From positions 128,001 through 192,000 of IMG/VR virus record IMGVR_UViG_3300020477_000013: a DNA stretch of 64,000 nt; one strand, 5' to 3'. The notes under the pieces are model-generated. The model saw only the letters and a program-made list of their open reading frames with translations, was not told the origin of the DNA and made no database searches. Origin of the DNA: a virus (Duplodnaviria > Caudoviricetes). The first letter of the stretch is position 1; every line of letters begins with the position of its first letter. The position numbers and the translations under genes are program-made. Below, piece after piece: positions 31,508 through 43,653 of this stretch.

Positions 31508-32149
31508 ATGAGGGTCACACGAAAGCAACTAAGAAGAATTATTAGAGAAACATGGGCCGATGATGATAGAGATTTCTCTGCACCCCCAGGCGAAGAAGAC
31601 TACTACGCTCCCGGTGGAGAAGGTGAGCAGGTTACGGATACACAGCTCAAAAGAGGCTGGGGTTCATGGCTAGAAGAAAGAGGCCTGGAATTTGAAGACT
31701 TGGACGATCTCGCCCTCGCGGCCGGCGCACCTAACAGGACATGGCTAGATTCCATCCCTCCGCATGATGGTTTCATCGGCCCGTTGGATGTTGGGGTGTG
31801 GGTAAAAGATATACAGGCTGCTAAGGAAATATTGTCAACAAGAGCAGGAGACTACAGTTCGTCGCCACATGGTAAGAAGATGAATGAAGGCGTTGACCCC
31901 CGAGGCCTTAAGACATATCTCAAAAGCCTGGGGGTCAAGCGAAGCTTCGGCAACTTGACCGATGTTCTATCAACAGTGTTTAACGAATTCGAGGGTGATG
32001 CTGTAGACATGAAGGAAGAGGTTGAGATCGTTAATGGCATACGTGATGATAACGGGCAGGCGATCAATTGGCCCATTGAAGTCTACCAAGACATCTACGG
32101 GCTATATAAAAAGCACCGGCGGGGATTCCGCGCTCAAAGGAGATGGTAG
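31508..32149 (+). CDS. Leader-family protein
   Basis: MRVTRKQLRRIIRETW. Confidence 0.85.
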   Translation: MRVTRKQLRRIIRETWADDDRDFSAPPGEEDYYAPGGEGEQVTDTQLKRGWGSWLEERGLEFEDLDDLALAAGAPNRTWLDSIPPHDGFIGPLDVGVWVKDIQAAKEILSTRAGDYSSSPHGKKMNEGVDPRGLKTYLKSLGVKRSFGNLTDVLSTVFNEFEGDAVDMKEEVEIVNGIRDDNGQAINWPIEVYQDIYGLYKKHRRGFRAQRRW

Positions 32150-32151
32150 TA

Positions 32152-32586
32152 ATGAAGATATCTAAAAAAAAGATTCAACAAATCGTAGCTGAAAATATAT
32201 TTGATTTGTTTATCGCACCAAAAAAAGTACATACGATGAAAATTTCCCAGCGGCAATTAAAAAGAATGATAAAAGAAGAGAAGGCAAAGCTCAAAGAAGC
32301 CGGCCCAAATTATCCCAAGCATGCATTTCCAGAGAAGACGCCGGCCAAACAAGGCGCTGCTATGACAACCTCTGGAGACCCACAGTCATACCATGACTTA
32401 GCGACACGCATGGATAAGATTACTTTATTGATTGAAGATCTTTCTATGGACTACGTCGATAGTGGCTGGTTGAAGGGAGGTGATCATGCTTCTTTGGCTA
32501 ATGATTTAGATAATCTCTTCTCTAACTCAGATAGGCTAGCTATGGCGGTTATGGGATTAGCACGATCAATGGGAGATATAGAGTGA
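32152..32586 (+). CDS. Leader-family protein with two tandem leaders (32152 and 32236)
   Basis: MKISKKKIQQIVAEN...MKISQRQLKRMIKEEKAKLKE. Confidence 0.8.
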   Translation: MKISKKKIQQIVAENIFDLFIAPKKVHTMKISQRQLKRMIKEEKAKLKEAGPNYPKHAFPEKTPAKQGAAMTTSGDPQSYHDLATRMDKITLLIEDLSMDYVDSGWLKGGDHASLANDLDNLFSNSDRLAMAVMGLARSMGDIE

Positions 32587-32921
32587 GAATCACCCGCAGG
32601 CAACTAGGAATAATTATCCGGGAAGAGATAGAGAAGTCGGCCCCCTTTGGAAGTGGCATGGAGCAGGCTGATCTCGACCCTGAAGAGAAAGAACTGATTG
32701 GGCACACATGACTGACACATGCCAAGCTGAAGTCTTCAGCTTTACAGGAATCTTACGGGATACGAGGGAATATGGCAGGAAAGGTTGTTTGGCACTCTTT
32801 AAAGAAGGACGGGTCAATCACTAAATATGATATAAGGTTCGGGGGTAAGATCCTTAGGGGGATTCCTGCTGCCCTTGTGGAGTCAATTAAAGAAGTACAA
32901 CATGAACATGAGGAGAGATAA
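32583..32921 (+). CDS. Leader-family protein with in-frame UGA (codon 43); candidate selenoprotein, 112 aa
   Basis: GTG start MRITRRQLGIIIREEIE; TGA at 32709-32711; frame open to TAA 32919-32921; 8-bp hairpin 12 nt after the TGA. Confidence 0.6.
32724..32742 (+). promoter_or_regulatory. Candidate bacterial SECIS apical stem-loop
   Basis: AAGCTGAA-GTC-TTCAGCTT perfect stem; loop starts GU, 21 nt after the UGA. Confidence 0.5.
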
Positions 32922-43566: not shown

Positions 43567-43653
43567 GGCACCGTGGCGGAATTGGTATACGCATCAGACT
43601 TAAAATCTGACGCCCGTACGGGATTGAGGGTTCGAGTCCCTCCGGTGCTACCA
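43567..43653 (+). tRNA. tRNA-Leu (anticodon UAA)
   Basis: TCAGA-CTTAAAA-TCTGA; long variable arm; GGTTCGAGTCC; CCA. Confidence 0.96.

What the first reader, a model, noticed from the sequence alone, without database searches (positions are those of the whole stretch)
32583..32921. Candidate phage-encoded selenoprotein: in-frame UGA plus SECIS-like hairpin in a leader-family gene missed by the ORF track
Seen: a GTG start overlapping the previous stop gives MRITRRQLGIIIREEIEKSAPFGSGMEQADLDPEEKELIGHT, then TGA (32709-11). The frame then stays open as LTHAKLKSSALQESYGIRGNMAGKVVWHSLKKDGSITKYDIRFGGKILRGIPAALVESIKEVQHEHEER to TAA 32921, 1 nt before the next gene's TTG (32923). Read-through fills the gap exactly, as in the rest of the tightly packed array. 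A perfect 8-bp stem AAGCTGAA-GTC-TTCAGCTT starts 12 nt after the TGA, with a GU-starting loop 21 nt from it. Established: bacterial SECIS elements are hairpins just 3' of the UGA with a G near the 5' side of the apical loop, and delta/Myxococcota lineages commonly use Sec. Inference, from unverified memory: T4-like marine phage proteins with H-x-C-x-T-H...H..D.G.I..YD(V/I).F...(V/I)P...E.H.H would put Cys at this UGA, the classic Sec signature. Phage selenoproteins are rarely described; this one would also be a tagged virion cargo.
Basis: partly seen in the sequence, partly recalled or inferred. Interest (0 to 1): 0.9.

Follow-up and report, generated by a model that had tools for sequence, protein, structure and literature searches.

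The report
Phage gene encoding selenocysteine via SECIS
A small gene of an uncultured marine jumbo phage has an internal UGA "stop" and an RNA hairpin just after it, both conserved in 36 related phage sequences, while distant relatives have cysteine at that position; this is the signature of selenocysteine, and I found no phage-encoded selenoprotein family described in the literature I could search.

Summary
Observation confirmed and interpretation supported. GTG 32583, in-frame TGA 32709-11, TAA 32919-21 and the 8-bp hairpin at 32724-42 are all present.

- **Conserved TGA:** it sits at the same codon in all 36 homologous loci examined (about 28-83% protein identity). Independent runs carry the same letters, so it is not a miscall.
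- **Conserved hairpin:** every TGA locus has a 6-8 bp hairpin 10-14 nt downstream. The stems differ in sequence and covary. The loop carries G at its first or second base.
- **Cys homologs:** sense-codon homologs, including T4-like cyanophage proteins, have an invariant Cys there. The four checked lack the hairpin.
- **Translation continues:** codon-position variability shows frame 0 is coding on both sides. No downstream start codon is conserved.
- **Not a code change:** TGA is an ordinary stop elsewhere in the genome. No suppressor tRNA or sel gene is on the phage.
- **Host hint:** a complete related phage genome is binned with a gammaproteobacterial MAG that has selA, selB, selC and selD.

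Best reading (about 0.8): a phage selenoprotein decoded by host SelB through a bacterial-type SECIS. Selenium insertion, the host and the protein's function are untested.

This scan noted candidate phage selenoproteins before on other DNA, in other protein families, but not this family.

The parts
32583..32921 (+). Complete recoded gene: 112 codons plus stop, GTG start, Sec-UGA at codon 43, TAA stop
   Evidence: Full-length homologs share 55-80% identity. Codon-position variability shows frame-0 coding on both sides of the TGA.
32571..32575 (+). GGGAG Shine-Dalgarno-like motif, 7 nt before the GTG start
   Evidence: Read directly from the sequence; not tested further.
32583..32627 (+). N-terminal leader of the MKITKRQLRRIIREE type (here MRITRRQLGIIIREE), ending in an I-x-E motif and shared with the neighbouring gene array
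   Evidence: The genome encodes a T4 gp21-type prohead protease (PF03420, 92 bits). Capsid targeting and cleavage are inferred, not shown.
32709..32711 (+). In-frame UGA, proposed selenocysteine codon (residue 43), in an H-T-U-L-T-H context and followed by C
   Evidence: TGA is conserved in 36/36 loci. It aligns to an invariant Cys in sense-codon homologs (hhalign 99.9%). The same letters occur in independent runs.
32712..32723 (+). 12-nt spacer between UGA and hairpin, with suppressed synonymous variation
   Evidence: The spacer is 10-14 nt in all loci. Third-position variability is 0.15 in the 36 nt after the TGA, against 0.47 further downstream.
32724..32742 (+). SECIS-like hairpin: 8-bp stem (32724-31 with 32735-42) and GUC loop (32732-34)
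   Evidence: 97% of cells paired, 3 pairs with compensatory double changes, 0/500 shuffles reach the observed score. Distant homologs have entirely different stem sequences at the same place. The hairpin is absent at Cys codons.
32694..32918 (+). Conserved beta-rich domain (residues 38-112) carrying H41, U43, H46, H71, H107 and H109
   Evidence: Alignment A5: H41, U/C43, H71 and G77 are invariant; H46, H107 and H109 are conserved in at least 90% of rows. AF2 model: pLDDT above 80 across about residues 41-100. Only weak SH3/KOW/Tudor-like matches in PDB, Z up to 5. BFVD matches to cyanophage proteins.

Best explanation
The gene at 32583-32921 encodes one 112-residue selenoprotein. Ribosomes that reach UGA-43 are met by the host's SelB-GTP-Sec-tRNA(Sec) complex, which is recruited by the hairpin 12 nt downstream (a bacterial-type, in-ORF SECIS with a G-U loop). 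Selenocysteine is inserted and translation continues through the conserved beta-barrel domain. The phage supplies only the mRNA signal; SelA, SelB, SelC and SelD come from the host. Sec replaces an otherwise invariant Cys within a His-rich cluster (H41-x-U43-x-x-H46, H71, H107-x-H109). This cluster is most likely a metal-binding or redox site. Ribosomes that fail to recode release a 42-residue peptide. The N-terminal leader probably directs the protein into the prohead, where a T4-type protease would remove it.

Shown by comparison: the UGA is conserved, translation continues in frame, the RNA hairpin is under selection, and the UGA column pairs with Cys in homologs. Inferred: SelB dependence, the chemistry of the site, and packaging into the capsid.
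For: 1. TGA is at the same codon in 36/36 homologous loci from many samples and studies, at about 28-83% protein identity. The 'W' shown in database proteins is TGA read with table 4.
2. All 36 have a 6-8 bp hairpin 10-14 nt after the TGA, with at least 7 different stem sequences. The loops are GUC, GGUCU, GGG, GUU, AGUU, GGA or GGC. In the 25-sequence alignment 97% of cells pair, 3 pairs show double compensatory changes, and 0/500 shuffles reach the observed covariation. The chance of a hairpin of at least 7 bp at a random position is 0.85%.
3. Frame 0 is coding on both sides of the TGA: variability by codon position is 0.14/0.08/0.38 upstream and 0.18/0.11/0.41 downstream. Synonymous variation drops to 0.15 over the spacer and hairpin.
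4. No downstream start codon is conserved, and the other-frame ORF is not conserved.
5. Every homolog with a sense codon at the site has Cys: nine representative-search hits, of which eight are in alignment A5 where the column is invariant, plus cyanophage P-HM2. None has Trp. Profile-profile comparison gives 99.9% probability and E = 6e-33, with the TGA column aligned to Cys. Four of four Cys loci lack the hairpin.
6. The Sec forms make essentially one deep clade, 25 of 26, so the UGA has been kept through long divergence.
7. TGA is a normal stop in 46 of 160 long plus-strand ORFs. No tRNA-Sec or suppressor tRNA is on the record. This is the only such site in the genome.
8. The geometry matches E. 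coli fdhF, read from the real sequence: UGA followed by C, apical stem from nt 15, loop G22-G23-U24-C25. Here the stem starts at nt 16 and the loop is G24-U25-C26.
9. A complete related jumbo phage genome (G001:C5) carries the same TGA and hairpin. It is binned with a MAG that has selA, selB and tRNA-Sec side by side, plus selD. Twelve of the 21 genomes searched (G001 and its 20 relatives) have selB. Some relatives have SelW-like and AhpD-like genes with in-frame TGA.
10. Cys forms occur in phages of cyanobacteria, a lineage reported to lack Sec (PMC9312934).
Against: - There is no direct evidence that selenium is inserted.
- The window phage's host is unknown. The only host hint is metagenomic binning of a distant relative (38% identity for this protein), and 100 relatives of that MAG lack the gene.
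- The hairpin is a simple stem with a 3-nt loop and has no bulged U as in fdhF. Rfam gives no hit.
- SECIS elements of SelW-like genes in the candidate host lineage look somewhat different: a 16-nt spacer, a 5-bp stem and a CGUGU loop.
- The motif is not a classical CxxU redox motif, and the protein's function is unknown.
- The phage record is only about 73% complete, so phage-borne tRNAs or factors could be missing. The complete relative C5 shows none.
Confidence: 0.8

Rival explanations
1. Programmed stop-codon read-through. The hairpin and the weak UGA-C context let near-cognate tRNA-Trp decode UGA in a fraction of ribosomes. This would give a fixed ratio of a 42-residue peptide to a 112-residue extended protein, as in Qbeta A1.
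For: UGA-C is conserved in 33 of 36 loci. The hairpin is short and simple. The 42-residue N-terminal part is itself very highly conserved. No Sec machinery is on the phage.
Against: No homolog has TGG at the site, although it is one transition from TGA. All sense-codon homologs have an invariant Cys. G is kept at the first or second loop base while the stems change completely, which points to sequence-specific recognition of the loop rather than a mere physical barrier. Trp at a conserved Cys within a His cluster is unlikely to preserve function.
Confidence: 0.1
2. UGA is decoded as Cys or another standard residue by an unrecognised suppressor tRNA or site-specific mechanism supplied by the phage or its host.
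For: About 27% of the phage genome is missing. Cys is the residue in homologs.
Against: TGA ends 46 of 160 long ORFs, including the gene immediately upstream. The complete relative C5 shows only ordinary tRNA-like hits and a single such site. A general suppressor would not need a covarying hairpin.
Confidence: 0.05
3. Two separate genes: UGA terminates a 42-residue peptide, and the downstream domain is made from its own start or by termination-reinitiation.
For: An ATG or GTG overlaps the TGA in most close relatives. The window has ATG 32772 with GAGGG upstream. Table-11 gene callers split the gene this way.
Against: Twelve of 27 loci have no frame-0 start codon within 30 codons, and none is at a conserved position. 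The overlapping ATG/GTG is in another frame and opens ORFs of 5-67 codons. Residues directly after the TGA (L-T-H) are conserved as protein in frame 0. In Cys homologs the two halves are one continuous domain.
Confidence: 0.04
4. Nonsense mutation, pseudogene or sequencing error.
For: A single-window view cannot exclude it. Two relatives (L028, L024) do carry frameshifts.
Against: The TGA is identical in 36 loci across deep divergence, with purifying selection on both sides. Independent runs agree.
Confidence: 0.01

Closest known systems
Bacterial selenoprotein genes with an in-ORF SECIS bound by SelB (prototype E. coli fdhF; minimal 17-nt upper stem-loop, as cited in PMC4607533)
   Same: In-frame UGA followed by C. 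An apical hairpin starts 11-12 nt after the UGA, with G-U in the loop at nt 23-25. There is a Sec/Cys pair with homologs. The signal lies inside the coding sequence and constrains synonymous sites.
   Different: The gene is carried by a phage that has no sel genes of its own. The stem is a perfect 7-8 bp helix with a 3-nt loop, no bulged U and no extended lower helix. The protein is unrelated to any catalogued selenoprotein family that I could check: the GOS families A, B and C differ, and the texts of BSepDB (PMC13326102, 111 families) and deep-Sep (PMC12013277) do not contain the words phage or virus.
Uncharacterised domain of T4-like cyanomyophage proteins (P-HM2 PHM2_164 'possible cytitidyltransferase', T4-like gene cluster 534; phrog_22379, phrog_11470, phrog_764)
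   Same: Homologous domain: hhalign 99.9%, tblastn and BFVD hits, PHROG links of the Cys forms. The same H-x-C/U ... H ... H-x-H pattern is present.
   Different: The cyanophage forms use Cys (TGT/TGC) and have no hairpin. They are embedded in larger proteins of 130-700 residues and lack the MKITKRQLRRIIREE leader. The 'cytidyltransferase' name is an untested annotation.
Poxvirus selenoproteins (molluscum contagiosum and fowlpox glutathione peroxidases; PMC8310308)
   Same: A virus encodes a selenoprotein and relies on host Sec machinery. In fowlpox the SECIS lies within the coding region.
   Different: Those are eukaryotic viruses with a eukaryotic SECIS (SBP2/eEFSec system) and captured cellular GPx genes. 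Here it is a bacterial-type SECIS in a phage-specific protein family.
Qbeta A1 read-through protein (UGA read as Trp)
   Same: A phage gene with an internal UGA gives a short and a long product.
   Different: Qbeta read-through has no Cys-homolog signature. Here the site pairs with an invariant Cys and has a covarying hairpin at SECIS distance.
T4 internal proteins with a capsid-targeting sequence cleaved by gp21 at (L/I)-x-E
   Same: A short conserved N-terminal leader ending in I-x-E is shared by many unrelated small proteins in an array. A gp21-type protease gene is present.
   Different: The leader sequence is unrelated to the T4 capsid-targeting sequence. Packaging and cleavage are untested.

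Membership tests
Bacterial-type selenoprotein gene (Sec-UGA plus in-ORF SECIS) | In-frame UGA conserved among orthologs, with coding sequence continuing in the same frame | tested here: met
   36/36 loci keep the TGA. Frame-0 coding signal on both sides.
Bacterial-type selenoprotein gene (Sec-UGA plus in-ORF SECIS) | Homologs with a sense codon have Cys at the UGA position | tested here: met
   Nine Cys-form representative-search hits plus cyanophage proteins; none with Trp or any other residue.
Bacterial-type selenoprotein gene (Sec-UGA plus in-ORF SECIS) | Stem-loop shortly 3' of the UGA, with a conserved G in the apical loop at a defined distance | tested here: met
   Spacer 10-14 nt, stem 6-8 bp, G at the first or second loop base in all 36 loci. 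Geometry is within 1 nt of fdhF. No formal bSECISearch run was possible.
Bacterial-type selenoprotein gene (Sec-UGA plus in-ORF SECIS) | The hairpin is under selection as RNA and is tied to the UGA | tested here: met
   Compensatory changes, 0/500 shuffles reach the observed score. Different stems in distant homologs. Absent in 4/4 Cys loci. Synonymous-site suppression over the element.
Bacterial-type selenoprotein gene (Sec-UGA plus in-ORF SECIS) | SelA, SelB, SelC and SelD are available in the translating cell | tested here: inconclusive
   None on the phage or on its complete relative C5. The MAG that holds C5 has all four (same calls), and 12 of 21 genomes searched in that lineage have selB. 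The link rests on binning only, and the window phage's host is unknown.
Bacterial-type selenoprotein gene (Sec-UGA plus in-ORF SECIS) | Selenium is actually incorporated at the UGA | not testable with these tools
   Needs 75Se labelling or mass spectrometry.
Cyanomyophage T4-GC534 / phrog_22379-type domain | Significant sequence and fold similarity over the whole domain | tested here: met
   hhalign 99.9%, E = 6e-33 over 100 columns. Profile search retrieves Cys forms at E = 1e-20 and weaker. BFVD hits at E = 8e-5 and weaker. The window protein alone hits no named PHROG above noise.
T4-type capsid-targeted internal proteins | N-terminal targeting leader with an (L/I)-x-E cleavage site, and a gp21-type prohead protease in the genome | tested here: inconclusive
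   The leader and I-x-E motif are present. PF03420 protease is present. There is no similarity to the T4 capsid-targeting sequence and no virion data.
Stop-codon-reassigned phage (code 4-like, TGA = Trp) | TGA is avoided as a stop and frequent inside genes; a suppressor tRNA is present | tested here: not met
   TGA ends 46 of 160 long ORFs. There is one internal site only. No UCA-anticodon tRNA was found.

The most novel reading that the evidence does not exclude
A whole lineage of marine jumbo phages builds a selenoprotein by hijacking host SelB, and packages it into the capsid through the shared leader as an injected, selenium-dependent metal or redox factor. On this reading Sec or Cys usage in the family tracks whether the host can decode Sec: Cys in cyanophages, Sec in phages of Sec-using heterotrophs. 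Host Sec capacity and selenium supply would then become determinants of phage fitness or host range. The UGA would also act as a selenium-sensing switch between a 42-residue peptide and the full protein.
Probability: 0.3. Interest if true: 0.9.

Novelty: new variant of a known kind. Interest (0 to 1): 0.82.

Why it matters
- **Missing from phage annotation:** selenocysteine decoding is well known in cells and in two poxviruses. The literature and selenoprotein catalogues I could search describe no bacteriophage-encoded selenoprotein family.
- **Strength of this case:** the comparative evidence is unusually complete. It comprises dozens of independent sequences, a covarying SECIS, and Cys forms in phages whose hosts lack Sec.
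- **What it would show if confirmed:** phages can rely on the host's Sec machinery using only an mRNA signal.
- **Annotation consequence:** gene callers systematically split or truncate such genes. Many database entries end at ...GHT, start just after it, or were rescued only by wrongly applying table 4.
- **New handles:** it adds a protein family with an unusual His-rich Sec site. It also offers a marker for predicting hosts (Sec-using or not) and a natural minimal SECIS of about 19 nt for engineering.

Tried and rejected
**Searches that gave nothing useful**
- Pfam gave no hit for the protein or for its Cys homologs.
- PHROGs gave only noise for the window protein.
- Rfam gave no hit around the site.
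- PDB and AlphaFold-cluster fold searches gave only generic SH3/KOW/Tudor-like barrels, Z up to 5 and E at least 0.05. No function can be drawn from them.
- An IMG/VR search with the Cys alignment failed for lack of a conserved stretch. Two distant 'W' representatives were not found in IMG/VR.

**Readings tested and rejected**
- *Global TGA reassignment:* rejected.
- *Suppressor tRNA or tRNA-Sec on the phage:* not found. The 42-bit tRNA-Sec hit is the long-arm tRNA-Leu(UAA).
- *sel genes on the phage:* none.
- *Independent start at ATG 32772, or the other-frame ATG 32708:* rejected.
- *Miscall:* rejected.
- *Other Sec-like sites in G000 or in the related complete phage:* none convincing. The remaining hits lie on the non-coding strand.

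**Host and catalogue checks**
- The candidate host MAG's molybdopterin enzymes have no in-frame stop, so no host fdhA SECIS was available for comparison.
- The gene was not found in 100 relatives of that MAG, so the host link is not reinforced.
- GOS hypothetical selenoprotein families A, B and C are different proteins.
- No RNA run holding the locus was found.

Full report
**What is in the window.**
- A GTG at 32583 overlaps the TGA stop of the preceding gene and is preceded by GGGAG.
- The frame reads 42 codons to TGA at 32709-11. It then stays open for 69 more codons to TAA at 32919-21, one base before the next gene's TTG.
- Twelve nucleotides after the TGA lies a perfect 8-bp stem with a GUC loop (32724-42). 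This hairpin is part of the minimum-free-energy fold.
- The window belongs to a 201.6-kb IMG/VR virus record estimated at 73% complete.

**The UGA is conserved, not an accident.**
- A protein search returned full-length homologs with 'W' at residue 43 and many proteins that end exactly at ...GHT.
- The DNA shows that the 'W' is TGA read by gene callers under table 4.
- I collected more loci from IMG/VR, JGI and Tara metagenomes and one GTDB genome. I also checked six distant representatives from an exhaustive profile search.
- In total, 36 of 36 loci have TGA at the homologous codon, at about 28-83% protein identity.
- Contigs from other samples and another study match the window across the TGA with no differing letter.

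**Translation continues in frame.**
- Across 18 ungapped orthologs, variability by codon position is 0.14/0.08/0.38 upstream of the TGA and 0.18/0.11/0.41 downstream. Both halves are therefore under purifying selection in frame 0.
- The residues right after the TGA (L-T-H) are conserved.
- Twelve of 27 loci have no ATG, GTG or TTG in frame within 30 codons of the TGA. No start is at a conserved position, and the ATG at 32772 is unique to this window.
- The ATG or GTG that overlaps the TGA is in another frame and opens ORFs of 5 to 67 codons.
- In Cys-containing homologs the two halves form one continuous domain.

**The hairpin is a selected RNA element tied to the UGA.**
- In a 25-sequence alignment, 97% of stem cells pair. 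Three stem pairs show changes on both sides (C-G to U-A or A-U; G-C to U-A; A-U to C-G). None of 500 shuffles reaches the observed covariation, and slid registers collapse.
- Distant homologs have completely different stems at the same place. Examples are AAGCGGAA/TTCCGCTT, GGAAGAA/TTCTTCC, ACTTGGGG/CTCCAAGT and GTCGGAA/TTCCGAC.
- All 36 loci have a stem of at least 6 bp (35 of them at least 7 bp), 10-14 nt after the TGA. The loop is 3-5 nt with G at its first or second base. The background rate of a hairpin of at least 7 bp is 0.85%.
- Third-codon-position variability falls to 0.15 across the spacer and hairpin, against 0.47 further downstream.
- Four loci with TGT or TGC at the site have no such hairpin.

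**The Sec/Cys pair.**
- Among 134 profile hits, those that cross the site fall into two classes: TGA or Cys. No homolog has TGG or any other residue.
- In a 34-sequence alignment (26 TGA forms read as C, 8 Cys forms) the invariant columns are H41, U/C43, H71 and G77. H46, H107 and H109 are conserved in at least 90% of rows.
- Profile-profile comparison of the two classes gives 99.9% probability and E = 6e-33, with the TGA column on the Cys.
- The Cys forms include proteins of T4-like cyanomyophages: P-HM1, P-HM2, MED4-213, P-SSM7, S-RIM14, S-SSM2 and S-ShM2.
- Cyanobacteria are reported to lack Sec (PMC9312934). That fits Cys in their phages.
- In a maximum-likelihood tree, 25 of 26 Sec forms make one clade with deep internal branches.

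**Not a code change or a suppressor.**
- TGA ends 46 of 160 long plus-strand ORFs, including the gene just upstream.
- ARAGORN finds seven ordinary tRNAs in the whole record. The sub-threshold tRNA-Sec hit is tRNA-Leu(UAA).
- This is the only plus-strand site in the genome that combines an internal TGA, open frames on both sides and a hairpin.

**Where the Sec machinery would come from.**
- The phage record has no selA, selB or selD.
- A homolog with TGA and hairpin lies on a 305.8-kb contig of the MAG 'Methylococcaceae bacterium TMED69'.
- That contig is a complete related jumbo phage of about 280 kb with a 25.6-kb terminal overlap. It shares 90 of 184 long ORFs with the window's genome in synteny, and it carries all the leader-coding sites found in the MAG.
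- The bacterial contigs of the MAG hold selA, selB and tRNA-Sec side by side, plus selD.
- Twelve of the 21 genomes searched (G001 and its 20 relatives) have a bona fide selB. Some relatives carry SelW-like (CxxU) and AhpD-like genes with an in-frame TGA.
- This is only a binning-level host hint. The protein was not found in 100 relatives of the MAG.

**Comparison with known SECIS elements.**
- Read from the real E. coli K-12 sequence, fdhF has UGA followed by C, an apical stem starting at nt 15 and the loop G22-G23-U24-C25, counting the U of UGA as 1.
- The window has UGA followed by C, a stem from nt 16 and the loop G24-U25-C26.
- The phage element lacks a bulged U and a lower helix.
- The SelW-like genes of the candidate host lineage use a 16-nt spacer, a 5-bp stem and a CGUGU loop. 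The resemblance is therefore to the general model, not to one host element.

**The protein.**
- The AF2 model has mean pLDDT 74.5, and above 80 across about residues 41-100. It shows an N-terminal helix (the leader) and a small beta-barrel.
- PDB and AlphaFold-cluster searches give only generic SH3/KOW/Tudor-like matches. BFVD gives cyanophage proteins.
- The conserved H-x-U/C-x-x-H, H71 and H-x-H pattern suggests a metal or redox site. This is inference only.
- The leader MKITKRQLRRIIREE is kept in nearly all Sec forms and in the surrounding gene array. The genome has a T4 gp21-type prohead protease. Capsid targeting with cleavage after I-x-E is therefore plausible but untested.

**Novelty.**
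- Full-text searches found poxvirus GPx selenoproteins and mentions of tRNA-Sec genes in huge phages. They found no described phage-encoded selenoprotein family.
- The texts of BSepDB (111 families) and deep-Sep do not contain the words phage or virus.
- The new GOS families A, B and C are different proteins.
- Earlier agents of this scan reported candidate phage selenoproteins in other protein families on other genomes. None is of this family.

**Limits.**
Selenium insertion, SelB dependence, the host, the site's chemistry and packaging are all inferred. The main rival is hairpin-stimulated read-through with Trp. The exclusive Cys/TGA pattern and the conserved loop G disfavour it, but only experiment can exclude it.

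Noticed in passing
G001:C5 (NHDW01000006.1, 305,838 bp); loci L069-L084: A contig of the MAG 'Methylococcaceae bacterium TMED69' is a complete jumbo phage genome of about 280 kb with a 25.6-kb terminal overlap. It is syntenic with the window's phage, so it is phage sequence binned into a bacterial MAG.
   Followed up: partly
P0010-P0019 and similar proteins: In many related contigs the table-11 gene call fuses an upstream leader-bearing gene in frame with this gene. These proteins carry two leader copies and end at ...GHT. Either true fusions exist, or starts are over-extended.
   Followed up: no
L028:2096-2130 and L024:1005-1345: Two relatives have frameshifts: a 1-nt deletion just upstream of the TGA in L028 and a C-terminal frame break in L024. 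Both still keep the TGA and the hairpin. These may be assembly errors or decaying copies.
   Followed up: no
window 43567-43653: tRNA-Leu(UAA) with a long variable arm scores 42 bits against the Rfam tRNA-Sec model, below the 47-bit threshold. Its anticodon is TAA, so it is not a Sec tRNA.
   Followed up: yes
window 32143-32586: The preceding ORF has a leader-like start (MVVMKISKKKIQQIV...) and a second, better leader copy from residue 31 (MKISQRQLKRMIKEE). It may be two overlapping start options or a duplicated tag.
   Followed up: no
L094, L095, L096 (G006, G005, G003) and G005/G006 CMD-family hits: Relatives of the candidate host carry SelW-like genes with a C-G-V-U motif and AhpD-like genes with one in-frame TGA. 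The lineage therefore appears to use selenoproteins.
   Followed up: partly
L036:216-428: Next to a Cys-form homolog lies a small gene with a weak Rdx (SelW-like) Pfam hit. It has C-Q-L-S where that family has CxxC or CxxU, and no TGA.
   Followed up: partly
G001:C5:239313-239585: In the complete related phage the Sec gene sits on the opposite strand to nearly all neighbouring genes. In the window it is co-oriented with the array.
   Followed up: no
G000:C1:30362-30787: A T4 gp21-type prohead protease (PF03420, 92 bits) is encoded about 130 kb upstream of the leader-gene array.
   Followed up: partly
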